Of a DNA stretch of 64,000 nt, positions 3,464-62,894 are shown piece by piece. Location of the stretch: contig CAYVAR010000001.1 in NCBI GenBank assembly GCA_964449675.1, forward strand, positions 44,877 through 108,876, written 5' to 3'. The position numbers and the translations under genes are program-made. Within the stretch, counting starts at the first letter, position 1. The number at the start of each line of letters is the position of its first letter. A model generated the notes under the pieces. The model was given only the letters and a program-made list of their open reading frames with translations, did no database searches and was not told the DNA's origin. This stretch comes from an uncultured Gammaproteobacteria bacterium. GTDB taxonomy: Bacteria; Patescibacteriota; Microgenomatia; UBA10105; UBA927.

Positions 3464-5629
3464 ATGAAAATTGTAAAAAAATCACTTGAACTAAATGGAA
3501 AACCATTGACGCTTGAAGTTGGACGATTTGCCCAGCAGGCAAGCGCTGCTGTGCTTGCCCAGCATGGTGACACAATGGTACTTGCAACGGTTACTGCGTC
3601 AAGTCGCGAAACGACGCTTGATTATTTTCCTCTTTCCGTCGAGTATGTCGAGCGTTTGTACGCAGGGGGACGCATCAAGGGATCCCGGTGGGTCAAGCGC
3701 GAAGGGAGGCCTTCAGATGATGCAGTCCTTGCGGGCCGCATAATCGACCGATCGATACGCCCGCTTTTCCCAAAAACGTATAAGCACGATGTACAGGTTA
3801 TTATTACGGTCTTATCTGTAGACGGTGAAAATGATCCTGATGTATTAGGGTTGGTTGCAACAAGCGCCGCAATAGCTATTTCTCCGATTCCATGGAGTGG
3901 TCCGATCGGAGGCGTTCGTGTGGGATATGTCAAAGATAACGGCAGAAGCGAATTTCTCATAAATCCAACAGTCACGGAACAAGGATTATCTGAATTTGAT
4001 TTTGTCGTCGCAAGTTCAAAAGGAAAAACAGTCATGCTTGAAGGAGGATTTTGTGAAACTCCGGAAGATGTAGTTTATACCGCTGTCCAAAAAGCAAAAG
4101 AAGCAAACGCGAAGATCATTTCATGCATCGAAGATCTTGTCAAAACAGTCGGAAATACGAAGCTTCCCACACCTGTAGCTAGTGCGGCAGACGAACTAAA
4201 AGCCAAGATAATGAAGGATTATAAAAAAGAGATGGACGAGGCTTTTGCCAAAAAAGCCCAAAAGGAATTTGGCGGAGAAGAGATAGGAGAACTTGCCAAA
4301 ACAATCCAAGAAGCGTACGCAAATGAGTACACCCTTAAAGCCATAGAAGATGCCCTGGACACACTCTTTAAAAAACGCGTGAAAGAAGATGTTTTGACCA
4401 AAGGCAAACGATTTGACGGACGAAGTTTAGATGAAATTCGACCGCTTGATGTTGCCGTTGGCATACTTCCTCGTACGCACGGTAGCGCTATGTTTACGCG
4501 TGGACAAACCCAGGCTTTGACCGTTGCAACCCTAGGAACACCAAGCTTAGAACAACTTATAGAAAGCCCAGTTGGAGAAGAATCAAAACGGTATATTCAT
4601 CACTACAGTATGCCGCCCTATTCTGTCGGAGAAACAGGACGCATCGGTACACCATCCAGGCGTGAGATAGGGCATGGTGCTTTGGCTGAGCGCGCACTTT
4701 TATCTGTCATCCCATCAGAAGAAGATTTTCCGTATACCATTCGTTTAGTGAGCGAGATTATGTCCAGTAACGGCTCCACTTCTATGGCTAGTACGTGTGG
4801 ATCGACCCTTGCGCTTATGGACGCTGGAGTACCGATAAAAGAACCAGTCGCTGGTATCTCCATAGGGCTTATGACTGACAAGAAAAAGTTTGTGCTTCTT
4901 ACTGATATCATGGGGATAGAGGATTTCGCGGGCGATATGGACTTTAAAGTGGCTGGAACAAAAAACGGCATTACAGCCATACAGCTCGATATTAAAATCG
5001 ACGGACTGACGGATGAGATAGTTGAACAAACATTGGGTAAGGCAAAAATTGCGCGGATGAAGATACTGGAAAAAATGCTTTCAGTTATCAGTACCCCCCG
5101 TAAAAAACTTTCTCAATACGCGCCAAATGTCAAAGTAGTCAAAATCCCTACGGACAAAATCGGAGAAGTCATTGGTCCGGGTGGGCGAGTTATACGGCAA
5201 ATTATCGCCGTTACCACTGCAACCGTTGATGTCAATGACGATGGATCGGTCGTTATATCGGGAAGTGCTGATGCCGTCGCAAAGGCTGTCGAGTGGGTTG
5301 AAGGGTTGACCAAAGAAGTGCAACCAGATGAAGAATACGAAGGCGAAGTCAAGCGCATACTACCGTTTGGTGCATTTGTCGAAATTCTTCCCGGGAAAGA
5401 AGGCATGGTGCATGTGTCCCAAATGTCTACGAGTTACGTCAACGATCCCAACGATGTCGTAAAGCTTGGTCAAAAAGTGAAGGTTCGGGTAATGGAAATA
5501 GACGATCAACACAGGGTCAATCTCTCAATGCTTTTTGGCGAGGATGCAAAAAAAGCGCCGGTGCGAGAACGTCGAGATTCTTCAGATCGCCCACGGAGAT
5601 CTTTTGATAGAAATAGAAAGAGATATTAA
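3464..5629 (+). CDS. pnp: Polynucleotide phosphorylase (PNPase).
   Basis: Two RNase PH domains, a KH domain and an S1 domain are recognisable, including FTRGQTQAL, the GIEDF-AGDMDFKVAG motif and the KH GPGG motif. The ATG at 3464 is in frame within ORF 3350..5629. Confidence 0.95.
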   Translation: MKIVKKSLELNGKPLTLEVGRFAQQASAAVLAQHGDTMVLATVTASSRETTLDYFPLSVEYVERLYAGGRIKGSRWVKREGRPSDDAVLAGRIIDRSIRPLFPKTYKHDVQVIITVLSVDGENDPDVLGLVATSAAIAISPIPWSGPIGGVRVGYVKDNGRSEFLINPTVTEQGLSEFDFVVASSKGKTVMLEGGFCETPEDVVYTAVQKAKEANAKIISCIEDLVKTVGNTKLPTPVASAADELKAKIMKDYKKEMDEAFAKKAQKEFGGEEIGELAKTIQEAYANEYTLKAIEDALDTLFKKRVKEDVLTKGKRFDGRSLDEIRPLDVAVGILPRTHGSAMFTRGQTQALTVATLGTPSLEQLIESPVGEESKRYIHHYSMPPYSVGETGRIGTPSRREIGHGALAERALLSVIPSEEDFPYTIRLVSEIMSSNGSTSMASTCGSTLALMDAGVPIKEPVAGISIGLMTDKKKFVLLTDIMGIEDFAGDMDFKVAGTKNGITAIQLDIKIDGLTDEIVEQTLGKAKIARMKILEKMLSVISTPRKKLSQYAPNVKVVKIPTDKIGEVIGPGGRVIRQIIAVTTATVDVNDDGSVVISGSADAVAKAVEWVEGLTKEVQPDEEYEGEVKRILPFGAFVEILPGKEGMVHVSQMSTSYVNDPNDVVKLGQKVKVRVMEIDDQHRVNLSMLFGEDAKKAPVRERRDSSDRPRRSFDRNRKRY

Positions 5630-6010
5630 ATATTCGTCATCCCGACCGAAGCGGAGGGATCTTTTTTTAAATGCCTGCAAAGAAACAGTATTACGTTTAT
5701 ATCTTACGTAGCAAATAGGGAGTATTGTACATCGGCATTACAGATAACCTCGTAAAGAGAATCTGGCAACACAAACAGAAATTTGTAAAAGGATTTACTC
5801 AGAAATATAACATTGACCAACTCCTCTACTACGAAATTTTTCAAGATCCACTCACCGCTATTGCTAGAGAAAAACAGATTAAGAAGTGGAGTCGAAAGAA
5901 AAAAGTACTATTAATAATAACTACAAATCCGACATTTCGGGAAATTTTCATTGAAGACATACATTAATAAGTGAGATTCCTCGACTTCGCTCGGAATGAC
6001 AATTAGTATA
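5630..6010. mobile_element. Putative small mobile element: a GIY-YIG nuclease gene bounded by ~28-bp terminal inverted repeats.
   Basis: The left end TTCGTCATCCCGACCGAAGCGGAGGGATC (5632-5660) and the reverse complement of the right end GATTCCTCGACTTCGCTCGGAATGACAA (5978-6005) match at about 22 of 28 positions. Related ORF-less copies occur at 61036-61150 and 63655-63775. Confidence 0.45.
5671..5967 (+). pseudogene. GIY-YIG nuclease family protein (UPF0213/YhbQ-like) interrupted by an in-frame TAG codon.
   Basis: The frame reads MPAKKQYYVYILRSK-TAG(5716-5718)-GVLYIGITDNLVKRIWQH..., so the canonical YVYIL ... LYIG ... GIY-YIG N-terminus is split by a single in-frame amber. The listed ORF 5725..5967 is only the portion after the stop. 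Confidence 0.5.
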
Positions 6011-11877: not shown

Positions 11878-12240
11878 CGTATTCTCCTGTTACCCGAGGG
11901 TTGACTCTCGGTAGAACTATCACACCAGAGTGGAGGACGGACGATGATCCGATTGTCTGCGCGAATTTTGCGCATACGATTTGATCCATTTTCCGTTCCT
12001 CCATAGCCCTCTTCCGATGATTATCGGGACTGATGAGTCGGTCTTTCTACTATATAGGACTACGACGAAAGAGCTATTTTAAATAATGATTACCATAGAT
12101 TAAAGATATAAATAACGTCGACGACGTATATATTTGTCCGGGACTTGGCTAAACGTCATTTTCATACAATCCACCATTTTTCAGTTTAAACGGTTGAACC
12201 AACCTCCAAATCCCTCTATACTAACTGGTACACCATCTTT

Positions 12241-14394
12241 ATGTTTGGAAGAAAGAAAAAGCGCGCGTATAGGAAGCGCAAATCATTTGGCATCAAGCTT
12301 AAAAAGCAGACTGTCTATACGGTCGGGGCTATATGGTTATGGCTTTTTGCGGGAGCTATAACCCTCGCGTTTTTTGGAGAAGGATCAGTGTTATCTACTC
12401 TTCGCGAAGGACTCTTGCAGCACGTCGGTTGGGTCATGTATGGGCTACCGCCGTTTCTCGTCACCTTAAGTTTTCTCTTTTTTAACGTGAAATCAGATAT
12501 AGGGAAACCAAATGTCCCCTTGGGCTTAGGCGTTCTTCTTCTTTCTCTTATAGGCGTCACGCAAGCGGGAACGTTTGGTGAATTTTTGTGGAATATTGTT
12601 TCAAATAACTCCGCAGCTGAGGTAACAATTTTGGTCTATATCGGTCTTTTTATGGTTGGCTTGATCGTCCTTTTCAACACTTCTCTTGACCGATTTATGA
12701 ATATTATCCTTTCTGCGTTTCAAAAAATGGGTGAGTTGCTTGCAGTAGCCGTAGAAAATATTTTTTCTAAAAAGGAAATCCCGCTTTTTGCAAAAGACAA
12801 ACAACTTAAAATAAAAGGTACAGATGATGAAAAGCTATTAGGAAAGGCACCTATGCCGCTTCCTCCGATACTAGGAAAGTCACAAGCGATGGCTGGTGTG
12901 ACATCGACCAAGTCTGATCTTTCGATACACGCACCGCTTGCAAGTTCAAACGACGCGATATGGGAGTATCCACCGTTGACGCTTCTCTCTGATGGTCCTG
13001 GTCAAAAAGCAGATCGCGGTGACATGAGAAAGAATGCATCCATCATAGAAAAAACCCTTGAAGGATTTGGGATAACGGCAAAAGTAACTGAAGTAAATAC
13101 CGGTCCGGCGGTCACGCAGTACGCACTTGAGATAGCATTAGGTACAAAAGTGTCAAAGATTACATCACTTTCAAGTGACCTTGCGCTTGCTCTTGCTGCT
13201 CCCACCGGTCAAGTGCGCATAGAAGCGCCGATACCCGGACGAAGCTTGGTGGGAATTGAAATTCCAAATAGGGGGCTTGAGTTTGTTACCCTTAAACGGA
13301 TGCTTACTTCCGACGTACTTCGTAAGTCAAAAAGTAAACTCGCTGTCGCATTGGGACTTGATGTGTCTGGGAGTCCACTCATCGCAGATATAGGAAAAAT
13401 GCCTCACGTATTGGTAGCCGGAACTACCGGTAGCGGCAAGTCGGTGCTTGTTAATTCGTGGATTTGTTCGCTACTGTTTCGTACTACACCATCGGAAGTA
13501 CGACTTATCTTGGTTGATCCAAAACGAGTGGAACTCACTGGATACAACGGTATACCGCATCTTTTAACTCCGGTCATCGTTGAACCGGATAAAATTCTTT
13601 CCGCCCTTCGCTGGGCGATGACAGAGATGGAAAATCGCTATAAGCAGTTTGCTGAGGTGGGAGTCCGGAATATCGACGGATTCAATGAACTATCCGGATT
13701 TCAAGCGATGCCCTACATTGTGATCCTTATTGATGAACTCGCTGATCTTATGGCGTATGCGCCAGTTGAAGTAGAAGATGCTATTTGTCGCATAGCGCAA
13801 ATGGCTCGAGCAACGGGGATTCATCTCGTATTGGCAACGCAGCGGCCGTCAGTTGACGTTATCACAGGACTTATTAAAGCCAACGTACCTTCTCGTATAG
13901 CCTTTAATGTATCTTCCATGATTGATTCTCGCGTTATTATCGATATGCCGGGAGCTGAAAAACTCCTCGGTCGCGGAGATATGCTGTATGTCCCGCCAGA
14001 CCAGTCAAAACCAAGTAGAATTCAGGGAACGTTTGTTTCAGAGCAGGAAGTTAATAAAGTCGTAGATTTCCTTAAAGTAAAAAATGTGCCTGTGCAGTAT
14101 ACCGAGGAAGTAACAAAGCAACCGCTTACTGGGTGGAAAAGAGGGCTTGCGGTAAACGCTGGAACTGATGGGAAGGATCCGCTTTTTGAAGACGCACTTC
14201 GGCTTATATGCCAGCATGACAAAGCATCAGCGTCACTTCTTCAACGACGTCTTTCTGTTGGGTATGCGCGTGCTGCACGAATTTTGGATCAGTTGGAAGG
14301 TGCCGGTATTATTGGTCCGGGAGAAGGCAGTAAGCCTCGAGATGTCCTCGTAAAAAACGCGGATGATTATCTTGCCCTACAAGCACAACAGTAG
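12241..14394 (+). CDS. ftsK: DNA translocase FtsK/SpoIIIE.
   Basis: N-terminal transmembrane segments, Walker A VAGTTGSGKSV, LILVDPKRVEL and IDELADLM motifs, and a C-terminal gamma domain (LLQRRLSVGYARAARILDQLE) are all present. Confidence 0.9.
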   Translation: MFGRKKKRAYRKRKSFGIKLKKQTVYTVGAIWLWLFAGAITLAFFGEGSVLSTLREGLLQHVGWVMYGLPPFLVTLSFLFFNVKSDIGKPNVPLGLGVLLLSLIGVTQAGTFGEFLWNIVSNNSAAEVTILVYIGLFMVGLIVLFNTSLDRFMNIILSAFQKMGELLAVAVENIFSKKEIPLFAKDKQLKIKGTDDEKLLGKAPMPLPPILGKSQAMAGVTSTKSDLSIHAPLASSNDAIWEYPPLTLLSDGPGQKADRGDMRKNASIIEKTLEGFGITAKVTEVNTGPAVTQYALEIALGTKVSKITSLSSDLALALAAPTGQVRIEAPIPGRSLVGIEIPNRGLEFVTLKRMLTSDVLRKSKSKLAVALGLDVSGSPLIADIGKMPHVLVAGTTGSGKSVLVNSWICSLLFRTTPSEVRLILVDPKRVELTGYNGIPHLLTPVIVEPDKILSALRWAMTEMENRYKQFAEVGVRNIDGFNELSGFQAMPYIVILIDELADLMAYAPVEVEDAICRIAQMARATGIHLVLATQRPSVDVITGLIKANVPSRIAFNVSSMIDSRVIIDMPGAEKLLGRGDMLYVPPDQSKPSRIQGTFVSEQEVNKVVDFLKVKNVPVQYTEEVTKQPLTGWKRGLAVNAGTDGKDPLFEDALRLICQHDKASASLLQRRLSVGYARAARILDQLEGAGIIGPGEGSKPRDVLVKNADDYLALQAQQ

Positions 14395-54063: not shown

Positions 54064-55359
54064 ATGAAAAAGATATTGTACGTGACGATTGTATTTGGTG
54101 TCATGTTAGGAAGTTACTATGGATATAGATTTTATTATCAAAATCTCCGCGGTATTGGTCCAGCAATATTGCCATCAGCTCGCAACATGGACCAACTTCT
54201 AGAAGAGCAGATCAAGCGTGAATCAAGTCCTGAGTCAGTGGAACCCAATACGACAGGATTACCATTGATCTTGCCAACTAAGTTCTCAATTTCAGTTTTT
54301 GCAAAAGACCTAGGGGGTCCACGTGTACTTGCCTGGGATCCCAATGGCGTTCTTCTTGCAAGCATTCCCAGTCAGGGGAGAGTGGTTTCGATACTTCGTG
54401 CGATTGGCGAGTTTCGAGATGACCAAGTTGCGACTGTCGTTGAAGGACTGAATCGTCCACATGGGATAGCATTTTTAGGAAATACACTCTACATCGCCGA
54501 GACGAACGCTGTAGCGACCTATGATTATGATGTTAATTCTCACAAAGCCACCAACAGAAAGAAGATAATCGATCTTCCAGAAGGCGGAAATCATTTTAGT
54601 CGAACAATCGGTTTTGGACCTGACGGAAGGCTTTATATAGCAGTTGGATCTTCATGTAATGTTTGTAATGAAAACGATTGGCGCCGGGCAAAAATTCTTG
54701 TTGCAAATGCAGATGGCAGCGACCTTAAGGAATATGCAACCGGACTACGAAACTCTGTATTTTTTACCTGGCATCCGTTGACAGGTGAGATGTGGGCGAC
54801 AGAGATGGGTAGAGATCTCATCGGTGACGGCATACCGCCGGATGAGATTAACCTTATTAAGGAAGGCGCCAATTATGGTTGGCCATATTGTTATGGGAAG
54901 AATGTAACAGACTTAACGTTTTCTTCCAAAGGCTGTCAGGGCGCAATAGCTTCGCATATCGATCTGCAGGCACACTCGGCACCGTTGGGTCTCGCATTTA
55001 TTCCCAATAGGAAGCCAAGTAGCTTAAAGGATGAAGGAGCCAACAAAATTGCGACCGCAAAAATATTGACTCCTTCGCTATGGCCGGAGGAATATCTGGG
55101 AGATTTGTTGGTTGCCTACCACGGCTCATGGAATCGAAGTACGCCAACAGGGTATAAGGTAGTGCGCATGAAACTCGATTCTCAAGGAAATTACGAAGGC
55201 ATAGAAGACTTCATCACTGGATGGTTGGGACATGCATCCGCTGCTGCCGGCGCTCTCGGCCGCCCGGTGGATCTTCTATTCGACCAAAAAGGAAATTTGT
55301 ATATTTCCGATGACAAGGCAGGGGTTATATATCGCGTAACATTCCATAGTTTTGAATGA
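54064..55359 (+). CDS. PQQ-dependent soluble sugar (glucose/sorbosone) dehydrogenase-like beta-propeller, membrane-anchored.
   Basis: An N-terminal transmembrane segment precedes SGDH-like blocks (GRLYIAVGSSCNVCNE, GEMWATEMGRD, NYGWPYCYG). Confidence 0.7.
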   Translation: MKKILYVTIVFGVMLGSYYGYRFYYQNLRGIGPAILPSARNMDQLLEEQIKRESSPESVEPNTTGLPLILPTKFSISVFAKDLGGPRVLAWDPNGVLLASIPSQGRVVSILRAIGEFRDDQVATVVEGLNRPHGIAFLGNTLYIAETNAVATYDYDVNSHKATNRKKIIDLPEGGNHFSRTIGFGPDGRLYIAVGSSCNVCNENDWRRAKILVANADGSDLKEYATGLRNSVFFTWHPLTGEMWATEMGRDLIGDGIPPDEINLIKEGANYGWPYCYGKNVTDLTFSSKGCQGAIASHIDLQAHSAPLGLAFIPNRKPSSLKDEGANKIATAKILTPSLWPEEYLGDLLVAYHGSWNRSTPTGYKVVRMKLDSQGNYEGIEDFITGWLGHASAAAGALGRPVDLLFDQKGNLYISDDKAGVIYRVTFHSFE

Positions 55360-55395: not shown

Positions 55396-55827
55396 ATGGT
55401 CGAGCGACATAGGCCTATAGAAGATCGTCAAAATAATATACAGAATAGAGAAAAAATTGGTTGGTATGATGTTTGGTTTCTTCTTGCTACATCTGGATTG
55501 TTTGGCGTGTTAATAGTTCAGGATTTCTTAGAAAAAGTACAAAGATATAGTTTGACAATAGAAAGTTCTCCCGCTGTTTTGGTTCATGCAGGTATCCCAT
55601 GGAGTGAGTGTTATCCACAAGAAAATTTTCCTGATTATGATTATAACGATCTTGTATTAGGATACGTGATGGATCTACTTCCACAACTTGATCCCACAAA
55701 AGACACATGGAGATTGTATAAACAATTTTTAGACGACAATAGTATTATGAATCCAGACGGAACAGTTTCTGCCTACGTTGTGCCAGATGTTGATCTCGAC
55801 GGGAAGGTCTGCGGTATAACTATCTGA
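55396..55827 (+). CDS. Hypothetical membrane protein of 143 aa.
   Basis: Listed ORF with one transmembrane segment and no motif. Confidence 0.35.
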   Translation: MVERHRPIEDRQNNIQNREKIGWYDVWFLLATSGLFGVLIVQDFLEKVQRYSLTIESSPAVLVHAGIPWSECYPQENFPDYDYNDLVLGYVMDLLPQLDPTKDTWRLYKQFLDDNSIMNPDGTVSAYVVPDVDLDGKVCGITI

Positions 55828-55916
55828 GAAGATGGGAGTCTGCTCCTTTCAGGAGGAGGGTTGTATATTCCTTCTCGTACCGATAATCCTTAAATATTAA
55901 CCTGAGTTTAGGATCA

Positions 55917-55954
55917 CCCAAACGTAAACGCGTAGAGGTCGAGGGTGGCGTCAG
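55917..55954 (+). repeat. Left copy of a ~28-bp direct repeat flanking the brnTA cassette.
   Basis: CCAAACGTAAACGCGTAGAGGTCGAgGGT is repeated at 56600-56635, where it encodes the C-terminus (DLYAFTFG-stop) of the dsbD-like gene on the minus strand. Confidence 0.55.
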
Positions 55955-55999
55955 TTCGTTTGATAGTTGACATTGTACATACAATGTGTCATCATCAAT

Positions 56000-56290
56000 A
56001 TGATGAGGCGGTTTGAGTTTAGCGGAGAGAAAAATGCGTTGATAAAAAGAAAGCACGGTATTTCGTTTGAGGAAATTATTGACGCATTGGAAGGAAAGAA
56101 AATTTTGGCAGCATTTCCGCATCCGAACCGGAAGAAATATCCAAATCAAACCATGATGATTGTAGAGATAAAAGGATATGCGTGTGTTGTACCGACGATA
56201 AAAAGTGAGCAGTCAATATTTCTCAAGACCGCGTTTCCGAGCAGAAAATATACAAAGAAGTATCTAAAATCACGAAAGGAGGCTATATGA
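56000..56290 (+). CDS. brnT: BrnT-family (DUF497) toxin.
   Basis: FEFSGEKNALIKRKHGISFEE matches the BrnT FEWD.aK...N..KHGvsFeEa signature. The palindrome TGACATTGTACATACAATGTGTCA lies at its promoter. Confidence 0.7.
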   Translation: MMRRFEFSGEKNALIKRKHGISFEEIIDALEGKKILAAFPHPNRKKYPNQTMMIVEIKGYACVVPTIKSEQSIFLKTAFPSRKYTKKYLKSRKEAI

Positions 56291-56589
56291 AAAAGCAGAA
56301 ATCCGTTACTCTTGATTCCTACGAAAAGGAGATCAACGATGCTATTGAACGGGGAAAAGTTCGAGAGGTTTCTCCCGCGGTTTTACAGCGTATGCGAGAG
56401 AAATATGCTCGAATAGCAAAATATACCAAAACACAAAGCAAAAAAGATCGACGCGTGAGCTTGCGGATGAATGAGCGAGACTTAGATGCTATTCAAGCGA
56501 AGGCTTCGGCTAACGGTTTACCCTATCAGACGCTCATCGCCACTATCCTTCATCAAGTGGCTACGGGTAAAGTCACGGTTACGCTGTAA
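56287..56589 (+). CDS. brnA: BrnA antitoxin (CopG/RHH-like).
   Basis: It overlaps the brnT stop, and its C-terminus RVSLRMNERDLDAIQAKASANGLPYQTLIATILHQ is BrnA-like. Confidence 0.65.
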   Translation: MKKQKSVTLDSYEKEINDAIERGKVREVSPAVLQRMREKYARIAKYTKTQSKKDRRVSLRMNERDLDAIQAKASANGLPYQTLIATILHQVATGKVTVTL

Positions 56590-56595
56590 GGGCAC

Positions 56596-58356
56596 TTATC
56601 CAAACGTAAACGCGTAGAGGTCGATGGTACCGTCGAGGAATTCGAGCTTTAAAGTATGTTCTCCCGGAGTTGAAAGCTTGATAAGTTTATAGAGGCGATC
56701 AGAATCGATGGTTACAATACCTTCTTTTGTATCTTCACCTGCAACGTTTATCGTCAGCGATTGATTATCCAATGTTACTCGTATTCTTCCGGTAAGCCCT
56801 TCGGTTTTCGGACGCATGACGAGGAAGACTTCTTTGGCATCGAAGCGATAGGTAAGGGAAGAGCCTTGAGCAGGACTTGCGTACTCATCTCCGATCATCC
56901 ATTGGCCACTGAGTGCAAATGAATTCCTGTTAAGGTTTGTTGGCGTAGTATAGAGAGTACCTTCATCAACCTTTACTCTTTCAGGAGAAGCAAGACCACT
57001 CATTCTCCGAAATCCTAGATACGTTTCCGGAGTACGTGTTTGCACTTGATACGTTGGATTGCTTATAGAAACATCGCCAACAAGTGATCCTGATTCTTCC
57101 AAAAGTTCCTGGATTTTTTTCTCGGTCTCGTCATAATTCCCTTCACCAAAATGCGTGTAGCGGATACGGCCATCTTTATCAATCAAATATTTTGCCGGCC
57201 AATACCTGTTGTTGTACGCATTCCATGTTGCGTAGTTATTGTCCTGCATTACCGCATATTCAAGGCCGAAATCTTTAATAGCTTTGGCTACGTTGTCAGG
57301 ATTTTTTTCAAATTCAAACTCCGGTGTGTGGACGCCGATGATCACGAGTCCTTTATCTTTATACTTGGCATGCCACGATTTGAGGTAAGGAAGTGTTCGA
57401 ATACAATTTATGCACGTATATGTCCAAAAGTCTACAAGGACTACCTTTCCGTGAAGACTTTTTATTGTAAGAGCTTGTCCTGAGCTTGTCGAAGGATTAA
57501 ACCATCTTCCTCCTGAGATAAGCTCCGGTGCAGGACCTAAGTCGGGCGCAAGGAGCTTATTGAGCACATTTTTTTGAGGTTTTTGAGGAGCGCGAAGCAC
57601 ATCGAGCTGCTTTTTAACTGCGCTATTATCTTCAAACTTTGTGAGCCCGACGCCATAGTTTGGAAATTTGTCGAGGATAAAGGTTTGAAATTTTCTATCC
57701 AGTTGCAAGTAAATACTTATGCCAGCAATGATCATCAAAACTCCAAATGCTTTTTGAATTTTTCCACTGCTTGCCAGGAGCCAAGGTACTTTTTGCAGCA
57801 ACGTTCTGCCGCTGTAGGTGATTGCCAGAAGTGGCATTGACGTCCCGATAGCATAGGCAAGCGTAATGATAAACGCATCTGTCGTTACCGTGCTTGTTAC
57901 CGCAATAGTGATGATTGAGGCAAGAATTGGTCCGACGCATGGTGTCCAGACAAGCCCGAGGCTTAAACCGATCAGAAGTCCCGCAATCAGATCCGGTCTA
58001 TGGTTGGCTGTATCCGGATTGGATTGGTTTATTGGAACAAGACCTGCAAATTTTGAGAAAAACTGCTCCATGCGCACTTGAAATTTTGGATACAATAAAC
58101 TTAAGCCAAATGTCGCTACGATGACAACAGAGAGATTACGCAGAAAATCTGCAGAGAGTCCGGTAGACTTAACAATCGCGGTGAGGAAAAGAGTAAAAAA
58201 AGTAAAACTTGCAATAAAGCCAAGGATAATGCCAATCGGTCGCTTTTTGCCGCCGGTGAGGGATCCGGAAAGCACGATGGGTAGAATCGGAAGAATGCAC
58301 GGAGAAAGTATCGTAACGATACCTGCCAGGAATGAAAAGAGTATGAGAAGAAACAT
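56596..58356 (-). CDS. DsbD/CcdA-like membrane thiol:disulfide transporter fused to a periplasmic TlpA/ResA-type thioredoxin domain and a C-terminal beta-rich domain.
   Basis: The CcdA transmembrane cysteines CILPILPIV and CVGPILASI are followed by the thioredoxin motif WTYTCINC. Confidence 0.75.
   Translation of the reverse strand: MFLLILFSFLAGIVTILSPCILPILPIVLSGSLTGGKKRPIGIILGFIASFTFFTLFLTAIVKSTGLSADFLRNLSVVIVATFGLSLLYPKFQVRMEQFFSKFAGLVPINQSNPDTANHRPDLIAGLLIGLSLGLVWTPCVGPILASIITIAVTSTVTTDAFIITLAYAIGTSMPLLAITYSGRTLLQKVPWLLASSGKIQKAFGVLMIIAGISIYLQLDRKFQTFILDKFPNYGVGLTKFEDNSAVKKQLDVLRAPQKPQKNVLNKLLAPDLGPAPELISGGRWFNPSTSSGQALTIKSLHGKVVLVDFWTYTCINCIRTLPYLKSWHAKYKDKGLVIIGVHTPEFEFEKNPDNVAKAIKDFGLEYAVMQDNNYATWNAYNNRYWPAKYLIDKDGRIRYTHFGEGNYDETEKKIQELLEESGSLVGDVSISNPTYQVQTRTPETYLGFRRMSGLASPERVKVDEGTLYTTPTNLNRNSFALSGQWMIGDEYASPAQGSSLTYRFDAKEVFLVMRPKTEGLTGRIRVTLDNQSLTINVAGEDTKEGIVTIDSDRLYKLIKLSTPGEHTLKLEFLDGTIDLYAFTFG
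56600..56635 (+). repeat. Right copy of the ~28-bp direct repeat; this is the native 3' end of the dsbD-like CDS.
   Basis: See the 55917-55954 entry. 27 of 28 nt are identical. Confidence 0.55.
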
Positions 58357-58357
58357 G

Positions 58358-58795
58358 CTACTGTTTTGTTTTTAGTCTGTTTATGATGTCATTGACATCG
58401 CCGCCATTCCAAGTTTGGAGTGCATTGCCAACTTTATCAACTTCGACAAACGTATGCTGGTACGTTACTCCGTACCTCGTCTTAAGTGCTGTTTCACTAT
58501 CATAATCAGTTTTCAAAATGACAACGCCTTCTGGTATTTGATTGGGATTATCACTGAGCGCTTTATCCAGTGGTCGACACGTTGGACACCAGGGTGCGTG
58601 GAAGTAGAGAACCCGGCGTTTGTCCGCCGCCGCGTCAAATGCAGTTTCTGAGTAAGGAATGTATCGATCAGTTTGACTTGCTACTTGAGGCGGCTGTGTT
58701 TCCCTAGTGTACGTTGGTGAGGAAGTAGATTTCACTGTAAAAAGAATACCTCCCACCACGAGAACTGCAACTACAATACCAATTATTTTTTTCAT
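58358..58795 (-). CDS. Membrane-anchored thioredoxin-family protein.
   Basis: An N-terminal transmembrane segment precedes the thioredoxin active site HAPWCPTC. Confidence 0.7.
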   Translation of the reverse strand: MKKIIGIVVAVLVVGGILFTVKSTSSPTYTRETQPPQVASQTDRYIPYSETAFDAAADKRRVLYFHAPWCPTCRPLDKALSDNPNQIPEGVVILKTDYDSETALKTRYGVTYQHTFVEVDKVGNALQTWNGGDVNDIINRLKTKQ

Positions 58796-58851
58796 TGTTT
58801 ACGTTTCAGTATAGCACAATCTTTGATTATTTAAGGTAAAATACGGGAAGT

Positions 58852-59826
58852 ATGACGCTCCCACTTAACTGGGTCGATTGGATTATCCTTGCTGCTATTT
58901 TTTACTTTCTCGTTGATGGATGGCAAGCAGGACTTGTTTCGCTCGTAGAAAGTTTATTAGCGTTTTTGGGATCACTTTGGTTATCTATAAAATACCATGC
59001 GTTGGTAGGAAATTTTCTTGTTGAAAAATTCGGAATCCCGCAACTTTGGTCATCAGTCGTCGGATATATCATCGTTGGTTTTGTTGCTGATATTGTTATT
59101 CGTGAAGTTCTCACTATGCTCATCGGGAAACTTCCCAAAAAACTCGTAGAGTCAAAGACAAATCAATGGCTCGGGTCGATTGTTTCAGGTGTCAACGGCA
59201 TTATCCTTGTCACGTTTGTACTTCTTCTTGTTACTGCGTTACCAATTCGAGGAACGGTAAAAAATGATATCAGACAATCTACAGTAGGTAAACAACTACT
59301 TTTACTTGCCAATCGGTATGCCGGACAAGTGAAATCGACCTTAGATGAAGCGACGAAAGAAGCACTCAAATTTATTACGGTACAGCCTACGTCAAAAGAG
59401 CGCATTGTTTTGGACGTAACTCCTGGCAAAAATCAGCTTTCGATCGATAACCAGGCGGAGGTTACAATGCTTGAACTACTTAATAAGGAACGTGAAAAAG
59501 TAGGTGCACCACTTCTCGTTATTGACTCCAAAATTACCCAAGTCGCTCGATTACATAGTCGCGATATGTTTGAACGTAAATACTTTTCGCATATTACTCC
59601 GGAAGGGAAAGATGCTGGAGACAGGTTACAAGCGGGTGGAGTAGCCTATGAGGTGGCCGGAGAAAATCTCGCCTACGCACCGGATGTAAATACTGCACAT
59701 CATGGACTTATGAATAGCGAAGGACACCGGAAAAATATTCTTGATCCCCAGTTTCACCATATTGGCATCGGCGTCATTGACGGAGGAGTCTACGGCAAGA
59801 TGTTTGTCCAAAACTTCACGGATTAA
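58852..59826 (+). CDS. CvpA-family membrane protein fused to a C-terminal CAP/SCP (PR-1-like) domain.
   Basis: Four N-terminal transmembrane segments resemble CvpA. The C-terminus contains GHRKNILDPQFHHIGIGV, a CAP-domain signature. Confidence 0.6.
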   Translation: MTLPLNWVDWIILAAIFYFLVDGWQAGLVSLVESLLAFLGSLWLSIKYHALVGNFLVEKFGIPQLWSSVVGYIIVGFVADIVIREVLTMLIGKLPKKLVESKTNQWLGSIVSGVNGIILVTFVLLLVTALPIRGTVKNDIRQSTVGKQLLLLANRYAGQVKSTLDEATKEALKFITVQPTSKERIVLDVTPGKNQLSIDNQAEVTMLELLNKEREKVGAPLLVIDSKITQVARLHSRDMFERKYFSHITPEGKDAGDRLQAGGVAYEVAGENLAYAPDVNTAHHGLMNSEGHRKNILDPQFHHIGIGVIDGGVYGKMFVQNFTD

Positions 59827-59836
59827 TTTTCTTATC

Positions 59837-59866
59837 ATGTTATCATGTTTTAAAACAAGATAACAT
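59837..59866. repeat. Copy 3 of the 30-bp palindrome ATGTTATCATGTTTTAAAACAAGATAACAT.
   Basis: It lies 11 bp after the stop of the CvpA-CAP gene and 17 bp before the MGMT gene start, and is identical to copy 1. Confidence 0.5.
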
Positions 59867-59882
59867 GAAATGATTAGGAACT

Positions 59883-60182
59883 ATGATGGTTGCAGAACGA
59901 GTGCACACAATCATTAAGAAAATTCCTAAGGGAAAGGTTGCGACCTACAAACAAATAGCAAGCCTTGCTGGAAATATTCATCCGCGATACATTGGTTATC
60001 TCCTTCATCATAACCCAGATCCAAAGACGATCCCATGTCATCGGGTAGTAAATGCTCAGGGAAAGCTTGCGAAGCAATATGCGTTTAGTGGAATTGAAGG
60101 ACAAAAAATGAAACTTGAACAAGAAGGGATCACAGTGAAAGAGGATGAGGTAGATCTTGATCGATATTTATGGAAACAATAA
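59883..60182 (+). CDS. MGMT-family (O6-alkylguanine-DNA alkyltransferase DNA-binding domain) protein, 99 aa.
   Basis: Contains the PCHRVV active-site motif with its Cys, within a winged-helix domain, and lacks the N-terminal domain. Confidence 0.75.
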   Translation: MMVAERVHTIIKKIPKGKVATYKQIASLAGNIHPRYIGYLLHHNPDPKTIPCHRVVNAQGKLAKQYAFSGIEGQKMKLEQEGITVKEDEVDLDRYLWKQ

Positions 60183-60257
60183 ATTGTCATCCTGCTAGTC
60201 ACCCGCCATCCCGTCGACTTCGCTTAAAGGCAAGCTAGTCTTTTGGATAATCAAACG

Positions 60258-61031
60258 TTAGCTCGATAGCCAACCACCATCTACATATAGTGTCGCACCG
60301 GTGGTGTAACTTGCTTCGTTTGAGGATAGATACACGACTGCTCCTGCAATTTCTTCTGGTTTTCCTGCGCGTTTGAGTGGCACGCGGGAAAGAAACGTTT
60401 GGGCCTGCGTCGGGTCTTTAAGCATATTTTGTGTCATTTCTGTTTCGATGATTCCGGGGCCAATGCAATTGACAAGTATTCCCATTGGCGCAAGCTCATC
60501 AGCAAGCGCTTCGGTCATCGCGACAATACCGCCTTTGCTTGCGCAGTAATGTGCGACAGAGGGAAACCCTACGCCAACGCCGCCTGAGGCAATAGATGCG
60601 ATATTTATAATGCGCCTTCCGCCAGCTGGCGGATTATTTTTTTTCATTTCTCGTGCAGCTGCCTGAGCAACGAGAAAATACCCTTTGAGATTTGTGTCAA
60701 TGGTTTTATCCCACTGTGCTTCAGTCATATCAAGAAATGGACTAAACTCGGCAACTCCAGCATTATTAAGTAGTATATCGAGACGACCGTACGTTTGGAC
60801 TGTCTGGTTGATCGCTGATTGGATGTCCTCTTTTTTGGTAACATCCATTTGTACGGCAAGCGCTTCATGCCCGTTTTCTTTTATTTCCGTAGCAAGCGCC
60901 TTGAGCCGATCAATTCTTCGTGCGGCAACAGCGACTTTTGCACCCTGGTTGGCAAGGGCAATTGCCGAGGCTTTTCCGATACCGCTACTTGCTCCCGTAA
61001 CGAATGCAACTTTTCCGGTCAAATCAAACAT
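60258..61031 (-). CDS. SDR-family oxidoreductase (FabG-like).
   Basis: Contains TGASSGIGKA, NNAG and YCASKGG. Confidence 0.85.
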   Translation of the reverse strand: MFDLTGKVAFVTGASSGIGKASAIALANQGAKVAVAARRIDRLKALATEIKENGHEALAVQMDVTKKEDIQSAINQTVQTYGRLDILLNNAGVAEFSPFLDMTEAQWDKTIDTNLKGYFLVAQAAAREMKKNNPPAGGRRIINIASIASGGVGVGFPSVAHYCASKGGIVAMTEALADELAPMGILVNCIGPGIIETEMTQNMLKDPTQAQTFLSRVPLKRAGKPEEIAGAVVYLSSNEASYTTGATLYVDGGWLSS

Positions 61032-61035
61032 ATTT

Positions 61036-61150
61036 AGGAGTTACGCACTTTTGTCATCGCGAGACCGTTCTGACGGCGAAGCGATCTCTCATTGACGAAT
61101 ATGAGATTGCCGCGTCGCTCTCGCTCCTCGCAATGACAGTTTGTGTAAGT
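61036..61150. repeat. MITE-like copy A of the TIR-element family seen around the GIY-YIG gene.
   Basis: Left end ACGCACTTTTGTCATCGCGAG ... CGAAGCGATCTCTC; right end CGCTCCTCGCAATGACAG. It shares 25 bp plus further blocks with copy B (63655-63775) and with the ends of the element at 5630-6010. Confidence 0.4.
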
Positions 61151-61160
61151 CATGCATATT

Positions 61161-61805
61161 CTATTTTTTCCGAAATATTAAAAGACCTCTATAGATGAGT
61201 ATGACTGTCATTATGAGAAAAACAAACGTGCTCGCCGGAGGAAATGAAGGATTAGCAAGTTCCGGCGTGACTTTAACTTTTCCCTGCCACCAGCTGATCC
61301 ATCCTTGATACTTCATGATGACGAGATGAAGATACACAGCGATAAATGCCGTATGCCCAGCGATTTTTTGTCGCCATCGCCATGAGTCTGAACCAAGCGC
61401 TGTAATGCTCTTGTTCGATGATATCGATGCTACATATACCCATATCGCTATCGCAATACCCCCAAATGTTATCGGAGTAATTTCGTTTATAAACCATGAG
61501 ACGGGAAACTTATTTGGTAATAGAAAGACAGAATAATAGACGTGGAAAAGTGCTAAGGCAAGGGCGAGTAATCCAAGTTCACGTCGAATCGGCATAAAAA
61601 GGGAAAATAATCGATATCGATGCGCAAGCGGGCCGATAATGAGGGTAAGTCCTGCGACCACAGCTGATGTTGAGCCAAAAACTTTGTTAATAATATAGTC
61701 GTTATAGTACCCGCGCCTGAGCCAAAGGTATAAAGAGAAAAGGAGAAAAACGATACCGGTAATACCTATGCTTTTTATCCATCGGGCAGTTACTTCTTTA
61801 TTCAT
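61161..61805 (-). CDS. Polytopic membrane protein (about 6 transmembrane segments), possibly a ferric-reductase/MsrQ-like haem-binding domain.
   Basis: Conserved His residues sit within transmembrane helices (LALFHVYY, AGHTAFIAVYLH). Placement next to the DsbA/VKOR genes suggests a redox role; the family assignment is weak. Confidence 0.35.
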   Translation of the reverse strand: MNKEVTARWIKSIGITGIVFLLFSLYLWLRRGYYNDYIINKVFGSTSAVVAGLTLIIGPLAHRYRLFSLFMPIRRELGLLALALALFHVYYSVFLLPNKFPVSWFINEITPITFGGIAIAIWVYVASISSNKSITALGSDSWRWRQKIAGHTAFIAVYLHLVIMKYQGWISWWQGKVKVTPELANPSFPPASTFVFLIMTVILIYRGLLIFRKK

Positions 61806-61821
61806 ACCTTCCCTTCTTATA

Positions 61822-62448
61822 TTACTTGAGCGCGCGTTCCACTTCCACTCGTATATCACTATATGAAGTTAAAATGAGCTTTTTTCCGTTGAGGTAGAAT
61901 GTTGGCGTTGAATTAACTCCAATTTTTAGACCGTAATCTCGATCGAGCGAGACATTGGCTTTTGTCTTCGGGTCACTCAGCGAGTCGGTAAAATCTTTTT
62001 CATTGAGATTCAGTTGTTTTGCTAAATCGACAAAAAGGGCTTCAGAAAGATTTTCCTGATTGGTAAAAAGCAGGTCATACATCTCCCAAAATTTTCCTTG
62101 GACACCAGCAGCTTCTGCAACAATCGCAGCCTTCAAACCAAACGGATGCTGCGCCAGAGGAAAATGACGATAGACAAAAAATAATCTTTCTCTATTTTTT
62201 TCAACGACTTCATCAACAAACGGTTTAGCAGCTTTGCACGCTGGACATTGAAAATCAGAAAATTCTACTAAATAGGTCGATGCGCTCGCATTTCCTTTTC
62301 CATGGGGCTGCTGTCCCAAAAGTTCGCTTTTTGGAAGTGTTGGTTGTACGGGAGCGGGACGGGAAAAGAAAATAGCCGCAATAGCAATAAGAAGAATAGA
62401 TGCACCAGTAACTCCTAAAAATAACTTAGATTCTCCCGTCAATCTCAT
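61822..62448 (-). CDS. DsbA-like thiol:disulfide oxidoreductase (BdbD-like).
   Basis: A transmembrane anchor precedes the CPAC active site FSDFQCPACK. Confidence 0.7.
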   Translation of the reverse strand: MRLTGESKLFLGVTGASILLIAIAAIFFSRPAPVQPTLPKSELLGQQPHGKGNASASTYLVEFSDFQCPACKAAKPFVDEVVEKNRERLFFVYRHFPLAQHPFGLKAAIVAEAAGVQGKFWEMYDLLFTNQENLSEALFVDLAKQLNLNEKDFTDSLSDPKTKANVSLDRDYGLKIGVNSTPTFYLNGKKLILTSYSDIRVEVERALK

Positions 62449-62894
62449 ATTTTTTCCAGTGTATAGCTTTTCAGTGTGAGAAGAAAAATCGTGACCATAT
62501 TAACTGCAGATACTGCGCACCAGGTGCAGACCGCTCGGATGACAAATAGTTCTGTATAGGTAAACCAGGATACAAAGAAAACACCGAATATTGACATACC
62601 CAGGATGCCCTTAAGAAATTGAAAATTGTTATTAGACTTCGTTGTTCGAAGAAATGAAAGAATTGCAATAATTGAATAACCGATGAGTCCAACTCCGGGG
62701 ACAGGAAATCCGAATAAATAACTCGATGGACTTTTTCTGACTGTCTCGCACCCAGTGTTTACACATACTATGGGTGCTTGCCGTACAAAACTTTGGAAAA
62801 CATATATTGCTATGACAATACCAACAAGTGAGAGGATAAATATGATTCGATTGAGTTTTTTCGTTTGTACTTCGCTAACTAGCATTTGCTTCAT
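62445..62894 (-). CDS. Vitamin K epoxide reductase (VKOR) family protein.
   Basis: A polytopic membrane protein with the loop Cys pair CVNTGC and the active site CTWC, overlapping the DsbA-like gene (VKOR-DsbA pairing). Confidence 0.75.
   Translation of the reverse strand: MKQMLVSEVQTKKLNRIIFILSLVGIVIAIYVFQSFVRQAPIVCVNTGCETVRKSPSSYLFGFPVPGVGLIGYSIIAILSFLRTTKSNNNFQFLKGILGMSIFGVFFVSWFTYTELFVIRAVCTWCAVSAVNMVTIFLLTLKSYTLEKI

What the first reader, a model, noticed from the sequence alone, without database searches (positions are those of the whole stretch)
55917..56635. BrnT/BrnA cassette inserted at the 3' end of the dsbD-like gene and flanked by a 28-bp direct repeat
CCAAACGTAAACGCGTAGAGGTCGA(G/T)GGT occurs at 55917-55954 and again at 56600-56635. 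The second copy is the genuine C-terminal coding end (..IDLYAFTFG-stop) of the minus-strand CcdA-thioredoxin gene. The first copy is an orphan duplicate of the same codons. Between them lie only brnT, brnA and their palindromic promoter (TGACATTGTACATACAATGTGTCA). A ~680-bp insertion bounded by a duplication of the target is a footprint of mobile acquisition of the TA module by site-specific or duplicative insertion. That mechanism of TA spread is rarely caught so cleanly.
Basis: seen in the sequence. Interest (0 to 1): 0.65.

Follow-up and report, generated by a model that had tools for sequence, protein, structure and literature searches.

The report
Toxin-antitoxin cassettes between repeated dipZ tails
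A small toxin-antitoxin gene pair in a groundwater Gottesmanbacteria genome sits between two copies of the last codons of a neighbouring gene (dipZ), and related genomes carry a different toxin-antitoxin pair, or both pairs in a row, separated by the same repeat, so this gene end seems to serve as a reusable docking site for such cassettes.

Summary
A 35-nt repeat (32/35 identical) lies at 55918-55952 and 56600-56634, and shuffled sequence gives no such match. With the stop codons it is 39 nt, and with one 4-nt gap about 44-51 nt. The right copy is the working 3' end of a DipZ-like gene. The left copy is an orphan that keeps its own stop codon. Between them lie only a BrnT-family toxin, a CopG/RHH antitoxin and their palindromic promoter.

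It is not a fresh target-site duplication made by this cassette. A diverged relative (L028, 85.6% nt identity) has the same cassette and both repeats. Other relatives (L024, L027) have a hicBA cassette between dipZ-tail repeats. One contig (L047) has dipZ tail | hicBA | tail | brnTA | tail. More distant relatives have no insertion, and there dipZ overlaps the convergent gene. Orphan tails change far more slowly than synonymous sites of the adjacent genes, and their differences look like those of coding sequence.

Best reading (about 0.45): the dipZ tail is an att-like recombination site where minimal toxin-antitoxin cassettes accumulate. This resembles tandem accretion of integrase-less elements. 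The recombinase is unknown. I rate it a new variant of a known kind, of moderate to high interest.

The parts
56596..58356 (-). dipZ-like gene (CcdA/DsbD transmembrane domain + redoxin + Thioredoxin_10 C-terminal domain). Its last 16 codons plus stop are the repeat unit.
   Evidence: ORF. Pfam DsbD_TM, Redoxin and Thioredoxin_10 (E=7e-35). Sources name it 'cytochrome c biogenesis protein DipZ'.
56596..56646 (-). Proximal tail copy 'A' (GAATTC..GGATAA). It is the functional 3' end of dipZ and is probably a recombinant tail: Asp at position -8 was found in only 1 of 120 DipZ homologues.
56287..56589 (+). Antitoxin, CopG/RHH type (BrnA-like). Its stop lies 6 nt from the dipZ stop.
   Evidence: Pfam PF12441, 29.2 bits against a cut-off of 28. 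BrnA models score only below threshold. Orthologues in L028, L047, L030 and L026.
56000..56290 (+). BrnT-family (DUF497) toxin. It overlaps the antitoxin start by ATGA.
   Evidence: Pfam PF04365 E=3.7e-4, below the gathering score. Many homologues at 45-66% identity carry PF04365 or are named BrnT/DUF497.
55967..55995 (+). Cassette promoter (TTGACA, 17 nt, TG-n-CATCAT) with the operator-like palindrome ACATTGTA/TACAATGT (55970-55987) in the spacer.
   Evidence: Conserved in L028, L047, L026 and L030.
55914..55957 (-). Distal orphan tail copy 'B' (GAACT/GACGCC..GGGTGA). It has its own stop codon TGA and a 4-nt deletion relative to the full 51-nt unit.
   Evidence: Orthologous copies in L028, L047 (B2) and L026.
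55396..55913 (+). Second variable slot between the orphan tail and GSDH. It holds a 143-aa ORF of unknown family (55396-55827) and a terminator-like hairpin (55843-55858). Homology to L028 stops exactly at the outer end of the orphan tail.
   Evidence: Relatives carry different DNA in this slot (L024 a 117-aa ORF, L047 a 95-aa ORF, L028 an 86-aa ORF).
54064..55359 (+). GSDH-like gene (glucose/sorbosone dehydrogenase family), the ancestral convergent neighbour of dipZ. In the distant relative L001 it overlaps dipZ by 14 nt.
58358..58795 (-). Thioredoxin gene immediately upstream of dipZ (conserved trx-dipZ pair). Both genes are deleted in L028 except the last 72 nt of dipZ.

Best explanation
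The repeat belongs to a family of dipZ-tail repeats: the last ~16 codons plus stop, about 51 nt. In one clade of Candidatus Gottesmanbacteria these repeats act as att-like recombination sites that delimit a slot for minimal toxin-antitoxin cassettes.

Inferred mechanism. A cassette travelling with one tail copy recombines with the resident dipZ tail in a Campbell-type, single-crossover integration. The enzyme would be either an unidentified site-specific recombinase acting in trans or RecA working on the 20-25-nt identical core. After integration, dipZ keeps a working, hybrid 3' end (copy A). The displaced tail (copy B) stays on the far side, joined to the old downstream DNA. Repeated events build tandem arrays, with the newest cassette next to dipZ. 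Recombination between tails deletes or exchanges cassettes and homogenises the tail cores. Toxin-antitoxin addiction selects against cells that lose a cassette by repeat recombination.

For this window: the brnT/CopG cassette (about 55960-56589) is an old resident of the slot, inherited since before the split from the L028 lineage, not a fresh insertion.

Shown: the repeat, the cassette content, the different occupants of the slot, the three-tail array, the empty ancestral state, and the non-neutral conservation of orphan tails.

Inferred: the circular intermediate, the crossover, the enzyme, and the stabilising role of the TA.
For: 1. Repeat and anatomy.
2. Same slot, different occupants.
- brnTA in the window, L028 and L026.
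- hicB + hicA in L024 and L027, with HicA matching PF07927 at E=4e-19.
- Both cassettes in tandem with three tails in L047: tail 38-88 | hicBA | tail 625-670 | brnTA | tail 1306-1352.
3. Ancestral empty state. dipZ overlaps the convergent gene by 14 nt in L001 and L043, and no orphan is present in L001-L013, L042 or L043. The orphan abuts GSDH 3'-end sequence in L026 and L025.
4. The 5' boundary of the orphan falls at the same place, GAA of codon -16, behind both hicA (L024) and the brnT promoter (L026).
5. Differences between A and B are stop-to-stop, synonymous or conservative: 5 of 39 in the window and 8 of 48 in L024. The stop codon varies among orphans but is always TAA, TGA or TAG.
6. 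The orphan cores are 28-30 of 33 identical between genomes. Four-fold sites of the adjacent TA genes are only 0.38-0.74 identical (P down to 3e-10).
7. Within a genome the copies co-vary: ACC and GCG in both window copies, AAC and GCA in both L028 copies.
8. The window's real tail has Asp at -8, like the orphans, whereas the other 119 of 120 DipZ homologues do not have Asp there.
9. Real dipZ tails of the window, L024, L042 and L002 are identical at 7/7 to 8/8 synonymous third positions. The gene bodies are 0.40-0.60 identical.
10. Published analogues: att-flanked elements without integrase, and their tandem accretion at the 3' end of a target gene (PMC5704250); Dehalococcoides ssrA islands separated by 20-bp ssrA repeats, some lacking an integration module (PMC3146451).
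Against: - No recombinase is linked to the slot. None lies within about 6 kb on either side.
- No empty site was found in a close relative, and no circular form has been observed.
- The same brnTA cassette occurs without any dipZ tail in L030 and L031-L038. A tail is therefore not an intrinsic part of the cassette.
- A different BrnT/CopG cassette in L049 is flanked by a 55-nt duplicate of another gene's 5' end. That could point to a general duplicative insertion process rather than a dipZ-specific att site.
- Everything rests on about 8 metagenomic loci from one clade. Some are contigs of 1.9-2.5 kb.
- L025 and L046 have tail remnants in positions that the simple model does not predict.
Confidence: 0.45

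Rival explanations
1. True duplicative insertion. An unknown enzyme makes staggered cuts about 50 nt apart at the target. Fill-in synthesis then duplicates the target on both sides of the cassette, as with target-site duplications of transposons and casposons or repeat duplication in CRISPR adaptation. Arrays arise from repeated hits on the same hot spot. Later gene conversion keeps the copies similar.
For: - The architecture is repeat-cassette-repeat-cassette-repeat, with the presumably newer cassette next to the gene body (L047).
- The duplication is of similar length at an unrelated site: 55 nt, 89% identical, flanking another BrnT/CopG cassette and copying the 5' end of an 82-aa gene in L049.
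- The 5' boundary of the orphan tail is the same for two unrelated cassettes.
- The copies co-vary within a genome.
Against: - Copies should be identical at birth and then drift. Instead their differences are stop-to-stop, synonymous or conservative, and orphans evolve much more slowly than synonymous sites.
- No transposase, Cas1-like gene or terminal inverted repeats are present in or next to the cassette.
- Duplications of 40-55 nt are far longer than any known prokaryotic transposition TSD (own knowledge).
- The cassette in L030 and L031-L038 has no flanking repeat.
Confidence: 0.22
2. There is no dedicated site. Cassettes arrive on linear DNA from relatives by natural transformation. They integrate by homologous recombination in dipZ on one side and an illegitimate join on the other (homology-facilitated illegitimate recombination). 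Because dipZ and GSDH overlapped tail to tail, only products that brought a replacement dipZ tail and left the old tail in place kept both genes. Selection therefore produces the duplicated tail. Unequal homologous recombination between genomes with different occupants builds the arrays.
For: - Ancestral 14-nt overlap of the convergent genes.
- The orphan keeps the old junction to GSDH.
- The A/B differences look like those between orthologous gene ends.
- The tail DNA is unusually conserved between genomes, which would give a good homology anchor.
Against: - Random illegitimate joins should give different orphan boundaries. The boundary is the same for the hicBA and brnTA cassettes.
- GSDH tolerates a changed C-terminus and is decayed or absent in L026, L046 and L030, so the selective filter is weak.
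- It does not explain why orphans stay conserved after dipZ is deleted (L028, L026).
Confidence: 0.18
3. A single ancient accident, such as a tandem duplication plus insertion in the clade's ancestor. No special mechanism followed, only differential loss of cassettes and gene conversion.
For: - All tail-bearing loci come from one clade of related, syntenic Gottesmanbacteria genomes.
- The window cassette is old.
- L047 could be the ancestral array, with the others as deletion derivatives.
Against: - It needs two unrelated TA cassettes, each already separated by a tail copy, in the ancestor. That only moves the question back.
- Orphan tails are conserved well beyond neutral expectation, even in L028 where the gene is gone.
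- Tail remnants sit at other positions in L025 and L046.
- There is an analogous repeat-flanked cassette at another locus in L049.
Confidence: 0.12

Closest known systems
Cis-mobilizable elements (CIMEs) and tandem accretion at the 3' end of a protein gene, such as ICESt1/ICESt3-related elements in the 3' end of fda of Streptococcus thermophilus (as reviewed in PMC5704250)
   Same: The elements are bounded by direct repeats that are copies of the target gene's 3' end. They lack integration and transfer genes. Elements sharing att sites form tandem arrays, and the gene stays intact.
   Different: Here the units are only about 0.6 kb and consist of a TA operon alone, promoter to stop. CIMEs are decayed ICEs or IMEs of several kb. 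No cognate integrase or ICE has been seen here, and the host is a CPR bacterium. Excision and integration are untested.
Dehalococcoides ssrA genomic islands (PMC3146451)
   Same: Multiple tandem islands lie downstream of one gene, each bounded by a short direct repeat of that gene's 3' end. Some islands lack the integration module. The repeats are conserved across strains.
   Different: The target there is an RNA gene (tmRNA), the repeat is 20 bp, the islands are large, and most encode a serine recombinase (DsiB). Here the target is a protein-coding tail, the repeat is about 51 nt, and no integrase is seen.
Integron gene cassettes, including TA cassettes of chromosomal integrons (own knowledge)
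   Same: Arrays of small, mostly promoterless or self-promoted cassettes are separated by a recurrent recombination site. The newest cassette lies nearest the primary site. TA cassettes can stabilise arrays.
   Different: attC sites are imperfect palindromes that fold as single-stranded hairpins. The dipZ tail shows no significant fold on either strand. No IntI gene is present. The recurrent site is a copy of a host gene's coding end.
Casposons and other elements with target-site duplications at gene 3' ends (PMC4779613 appeared in search; details are from own knowledge)
   Same: Insertion at the 3' end of a conserved gene, duplication of the target on both sides, and tandem arrays that share a repeat.
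   Different: Casposon duplications are about 14-15 bp, and the elements carry Cas1 and a polymerase with terminal inverted repeats. None of these is present here.
BrnT/BrnA type II toxin-antitoxin system (Pfam PF04365/PF14384; Brucella abortus prototype, own knowledge)
   Same: Toxin-first operon with overlapping genes, a DUF497/BrnT-like toxin, a ribbon-helix-helix antitoxin, and a palindromic operator in the promoter.
   Different: The toxin scores below the Pfam gathering threshold. The antitoxin matches CopG_antitoxin PF12441, not BrnA PF14384. Activity is untested.

Membership tests
BrnT/BrnA-type type II toxin-antitoxin | Toxin belongs to BrnT/DUF497 (PF04365) | tested here: inconclusive
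   PF04365 E=3.7e-4, 21 bits against a gathering score of 34.5. NCBIfam gives no hit. Homologues at 45-66% identity carry PF04365 or are named BrnT/DUF497.
BrnT/BrnA-type type II toxin-antitoxin | Antitoxin is BrnA (PF14384) | tested here: not met
   The window antitoxin matches CopG_antitoxin PF12441 (29.2 bits, cut-off 28). BrnA models score only below threshold: NCBIfam BrnA 18.5 bits against a cut-off of 60, and PF14384 E=0.06 for the L028 and L026 orthologues. In Pfam terms it is a BrnT + CopG/RHH pair.
BrnT/BrnA-type type II toxin-antitoxin | Two small overlapping genes, toxin first, with an autoregulatory palindrome in the promoter | tested here: met
   ATGA overlap at 56287-56290. Promoter and 8+8-nt palindrome. 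The arrangement is conserved in 4 other genomes.
BrnT/BrnA-type type II toxin-antitoxin | Toxin is a ribonuclease neutralised by the antitoxin | not testable with these tools
   This requires expression and rescue assays.
Site-specific integrative element without integrase (CIME-like) with tandem accretion | Element flanked by direct repeats that copy the 3' end of the target gene, with the gene left intact | tested here: met
Site-specific integrative element without integrase (CIME-like) with tandem accretion | Different elements use the same site, and tandem arrays share att copies | tested here: met
   hicBA in L024 and L027, brnTA in the window, L028 and L026, and both with three tails in L047.
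Site-specific integrative element without integrase (CIME-like) with tandem accretion | A cognate integrase exists, in cis or in trans, and catalyses attL x attR excision | tested here: inconclusive
The rest of the genome could not be searched.
Site-specific integrative element without integrase (CIME-like) with tandem accretion | Derived from an ICE or IME by decay | tested here: not met
   The cassettes contain nothing but a TA operon. They are bounded within 1-32 nt (A stop to hicB) by the tails, and no remnant of transfer or integration genes is present.
Integron gene cassette | The recombination site is an attC-type imperfect palindrome that folds as a hairpin | tested here: not met
   DNA folding of both strands of both window copies gave MFE -2.1 to -6.3 kcal/mol and z-scores from +1.5 to -0.8.
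Integron gene cassette | An adjacent IntI integrase and attI site | tested here: not met
   No tyrosine recombinase lies next to the array in the window, L024, L028 or L047.
Transposon-type target-site duplication | Identical short duplication (2-15 bp), terminal inverted repeats, and a transposase | tested here: not met
   The repeat is 39-51 nt and 83-92% identical. No inverted repeat was found at the cassette ends. No transposase lies in or beside the cassette.
Xer/dif-exploiting element (IMEX) | The repeat is a dif-like site (XerC arm, 6-8-nt spacer, XerD arm) | not tested
   Compared only by eye with dif consensus sequences recalled from memory. No resemblance was noticed, and the dif site of this lineage is not known.

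The most novel reading that the evidence does not exclude
CPR bacteria possess a previously undescribed, integron-like cassette system. The primary site and the inter-cassette repeats are a ~51-nt copy of a host gene's coding end (here the dipZ tail; in L049 the 5' end of a small Cys-rich gene). The cassettes are self-promoted toxin-antitoxin operons. Integration duplicates or replaces the gene end by a mechanism with a defined ~50-nt footprint, carried out by an unknown recombinase or by host recombination. This would be a general route by which TA modules move as naked cassettes.
Probability: 0.25. Interest if true: 0.8.

Novelty: new variant of a known kind. Interest (0 to 1): 0.62.

Why it matters
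How chromosomal toxin-antitoxin modules spread when they are not inside a recognisable mobile element is a long-standing loose end. Here the unit of movement can be read directly from the sequence. It is a 0.6-kb promoter-to-stop operon, and the junctions show a reusable docking site made of a gene's own last codons, holding one or two unrelated TA cassettes in related genomes.

If the repeats are active recombination sites, this would be the smallest att-bounded element type known. It would also give a concrete handle on gene flow in Patescibacteria, which have tiny genomes and few known mobile elements.

The data also suggest that TA addiction and flanking direct repeats interact: the TA would protect itself from pop-out by repeat recombination. 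Finally, the mobile tails appear to homogenise the 3' end of a host gene across species.

Tried and rejected
- Chance or artefact. Rejected: no matches in shuffles, and five independent assemblies show the same structure. The identical runs of 25 nt or less are shorter than the assemblers' k-mers (the k value is from my own knowledge).
- attC-like hairpin or terminator in the tail. No significant fold.
- Known RNA family. No Rfam hit at gathering score anywhere in the window.
- Phage-borne attP. A scan of viral contigs for the tail gave 3 hits, all inside unrelated T4-like nuclease genes.
- Orphan translated as a micro-protein. An ATG in the operator gives MSTIKRTDATLDLYAFTFG* in the window and in L028. 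The frame is shifted in L047 and stops early in L026, so it is not conserved.
- Tail as an intrinsic part of the brnTA cassette. Rejected: L030 (84.6% nt identity) and L031-L038 have the cassette without tails or any flanking repeat.
- Integrase in the window. None found, but the test was weak.
- Uptake-sequence idea. The tail occurs only twice in 64 kb.
- Empty site in a close relative. Not found. The closest DipZ homologues are 71-75% identical and already carry tails. The next ones (66-67%: L042, L043) have other genes downstream and no orphan.
- The ORFs in the second slot (window 143 aa, L024 117 aa, L047 95 aa, L042 176 aa) have no family match.
Full report
**1. What is in the window**

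The 29-mer CCAAACGTAAACGCGTAGAGGTCGAKGGT occurs exactly twice in 64 kb, at 55918-55946 and 56600-56628. None of 100 shuffles gave a match. The ungapped repeat is 35 nt, 32/35 identical. I read both copies in the frame of the minus-strand gene.

- The right copy (A) ends the 586-aa ORF 56596-58356 with ..EFLDGTIDLYAFTFG-TAA.
- The left copy (B) reads ..DATLDLYAFTFG-TGA and has no gene body. The orphan therefore carries its own stop codon.
- With the stop codons the repeat is 39 nt (34/39).
- With a 4-nt gap the homology continues to GAACT/GAATTC. The full unit is therefore the last 16 codons plus stop, about 51 nt.

The gene has DsbD_TM, Redoxin and Thioredoxin_10 domains, and sources name it DipZ.

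Between the copies lie three things:

- A promoter, TTGACA-17-CATCAT, with an 8+8-nt palindrome.
- A 96-aa toxin. It matches BrnT only weakly (PF04365 E=3.7e-4), but its homologues carry PF04365.
- A 100-aa antitoxin that matches CopG_antitoxin PF12441 just above the cut-off and not BrnA.

The window comes from the Candidatus Gottesmanbacteria MAG GCA_016204865.1. Four further assemblies show the same arrangement.

**2. The ancestral state**

Relatives share the synteny rpoC-S12-S7-..-HhH_GPD-GSDH, then convergent dipZ, then trx. In the distant relative L001, dipZ and GSDH overlap tail to tail by 14 nt. In L043, dipZ overlaps a different convergent gene by the same 14 nt. None of L001-L013, L042 or L043 has an orphan tail. 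The TA pair is therefore an insertion relative to that state.

**3. The repeat is not private to this cassette**

A six-frame search for the C-terminal motif, one metagenome scan for D-L-Y-A-F-T-F-G-stop, and look-ups of BrnT and HicB homologues found the following loci.

| Locus | What it carries |
|---|---|
| L028 | Orthologous locus, 85.6% nt identity over window 56668-55918. Same cassette and both tails. trx and dipZ are deleted except the last 72 nt. |
| L026 | Only the antitoxin, the promoter palindrome and tail B remain. B directly abuts the remnant of the GSDH 3' end. |
| L024, L027 | Between the real dipZ end and an orphan tail lies hicB + hicA (HicA PF07927 E=4e-19). This is an unrelated TA family, on the same strand as dipZ. 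|
| L047 | Tandem array: dipZ tail (38-88), hicB-hicA, tail (625-670), antitoxin-brnT with palindrome, tail (1306-1352), a 95-aa ORF, GSDH. |
| L025, L046 | Further tail remnants in other positions. |

In L047, the junction between the middle tail and the antitoxin (TAA + 6 nt + TTACAG) matches the junction between the real dipZ end and the antitoxin in the window. The pattern count is: three tails in L047 and two in the window-type contigs, L024, L027, L028 and L046.

**4. Nature of the copies**

- *Boundary.* The 5' boundary of the orphan is at the same place, GAA of codon -16, behind hicA (L024) and behind the brnT promoter (L026). The B copies of the window, L028 and L047 (B2) are the same unit with a 4-nt deletion.
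- *Differences between A and B.* In the window they are TAA/TGA, GGA/GGG, ATC/CTC and GGT/GCC. In L024 they are two synonymous changes, A/S, E/D, E/N and TAA/TGA. These are stop-to-stop, synonymous or conservative. Across orphans the stop codon varies but is always a stop.
- *Rate.* Orthologous orphan cores are 28-30 of 33 identical between the window, L028, L047 and L026. Four-fold sites of the adjacent brnT and antitoxin genes are only 0.38-0.74 identical (binomial P down to 3e-10). The orphans are therefore not drifting neutrally. They are either constrained or repeatedly overwritten.
- *Co-variation.* Within a genome the two copies co-vary: ACC and GCG in both window copies, AAC and GCA in both L028 copies. 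This indicates exchange between copies.
- *Asp at position -8.* The window's functional tail has Asp there, as all but one (L047 B1, Asn) of the cassette-flanking orphan tails do (L046 has non-Asp remnants). The other 119 of 120 DipZ homologues do not have Asp at this position. This suggests that the present gene end is a recombinant.
- *Synonymous sites of real tails.* The real dipZ tails of the window, L024, L042 and L002 are identical at 7/7 to 8/8 synonymous third positions. The gene bodies are at 0.40-0.60. The tail DNA is thus homogenised or constrained across Gottesmanbacteria.
- *Folding.* The tail does not fold.

**5. The cassette as a unit**

The brnTA cassette occurs from about 8 nt upstream of the -35 box to the antitoxin stop in two other settings. 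In L030 it is 84.6% identical at the nucleotide level, in the same chromosomal neighbourhood, with no tails. In L031-L038 it is 72% identical and lies next to obg. It therefore moves, or is retained, as a compact module, and the tail is not part of it.

In L049, another BrnT/CopG pair is flanked by a 55-nt, 89%-identical direct repeat. That repeat copies the promoter and the first 11 codons of the downstream 82-aa gene. The orphan differs by GTG/ATG, GAA/GAT and CGC/CGT. This is a second, unrelated example of a TA cassette between diverged copies of a gene end.

**6. Interpretation**

The best-supported reading is that the dipZ tail is an att-like recombination site at which minimal TA cassettes integrate, accumulate in tandem, and are lost or exchanged. 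Integration leaves a hybrid working gene end and a displaced tail. This is the logic of integrative elements that target gene 3' ends, of integrase-less CIMEs, and of their accretion (PMC5704250). It is also the logic of the Dehalococcoides ssrA islands (PMC3146451).

It differs in three ways. The units are bare TA operons of about 0.6 kb. No integrase was found nearby. The repeat is long, about 51 nt, and lies in coding sequence.

Whether the enzyme is a recombinase acting in trans, RecA acting on the 20-25-nt identical core, or a staggered-cut integrase that makes a true duplication cannot be decided from these data. The rivals are listed with their evidence.

In this window the cassette is an old resident, shared with L028, and not a freshly caught event. 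That criterion is partly met, because the repeat also flanks hicBA and stands alone in L025.

**7. Limits**

- About eight loci, all from one clade, and some on short contigs.
- No empty site in a near relative.
- No reads were examined.
- The statistical tests use few sites and related sequences.
- The positions of the tail remnants in L025 and L046 are unexplained.

Noticed in passing
L049 5032-5086 and 5808-5861 (also L050-L054): In a Hainich groundwater Patescibacteria MAG, four BrnT/CopG pairs lie between argS and obg. One pair (5238-5787) is flanked by a 55-nt, 89%-identical direct repeat that copies the promoter and first 11 codons of the downstream 82-aa Cys-rich gene. The orphan differs by GTG/ATG, E/D and one synonymous change. 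A strong hairpin (5119-5150) lies between the orphan and the cassette. A 53-nt copy of the same gene's 3' end lies at 1136-1188. An IS200/IS605-type Y1 transposase gene is at 12012-12674.
   Followed up: partly
window 55396-55913: There is a second variable slot between the orphan tail and GSDH. Homology to L028 stops exactly at the outer end of the orphan (window 55918). The window holds a 143-aa ORF with no family match and a terminator-like hairpin. L024, L047, L028 and L027 hold unrelated small ORFs there. The window's GSDH has a new C-terminus (..YRVT|FHSFE*) in place of the ancestral end inside the dipZ tail (..YRVTQT*).
   Followed up: partly
L028 2336-2457: In the sister lineage, trx and dipZ are deleted except the last 72 nt of dipZ. 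The deletion stops just short of the antitoxin gene. Both tails remain well conserved without a gene.
   Followed up: partly
L026 222-689: The antitoxin gene and the palindromic promoter are kept, but the brnT toxin is deleted, leaving an orphan antitoxin. GSDH is reduced to a fragment. Two copies of a CCACC(T/C)GGCAGGTGG hairpin motif lie upstream (about 50-64 and 189-203).
   Followed up: no
L025 3371-3450; L046 1435-1521: Tail remnants occur in unexpected places. In L025 an orphan tail plus a GSDH remnant lie upstream of HTH-121aa-trx-dipZ, within a block of small ORFs (DUF5678-like, aspartyl-protease-like, CHRD-like). In L046 a 28-codon dipZ remnant lies between a GSDH fragment and HhH-GPD.
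   Followed up: no
dipZ 3' ends of window, L024, L042, L002: Synonymous third positions of the last 9 codons are almost invariant (7/7 to 8/8) between Gottesmanbacteria dipZ genes whose bodies are saturated (0.40-0.60). This holds even in genomes without orphan tails.
   Followed up: partly
window 58358-62600 (L018 1-6000): The cassette slot lies at the edge of a thiol-disulfide gene cluster: VKOR, a DsbA-like gene, a short-chain dehydrogenase, an MGMT-like DNA_binding_1 gene, a Colicin_V/CAP-domain protein, thioredoxin and DipZ.
   Followed up: no
window 1-64000: No Rfam family, tRNA included, reaches its gathering score anywhere in the 64-kb window.
   Followed up: no
L039-L041 (viral contigs): The degenerate tail pattern hits three viral contigs. 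The hits lie out of frame inside T4-like nuclease genes and are chance or codon-pattern coincidences, not dipZ tails.
   Followed up: yes
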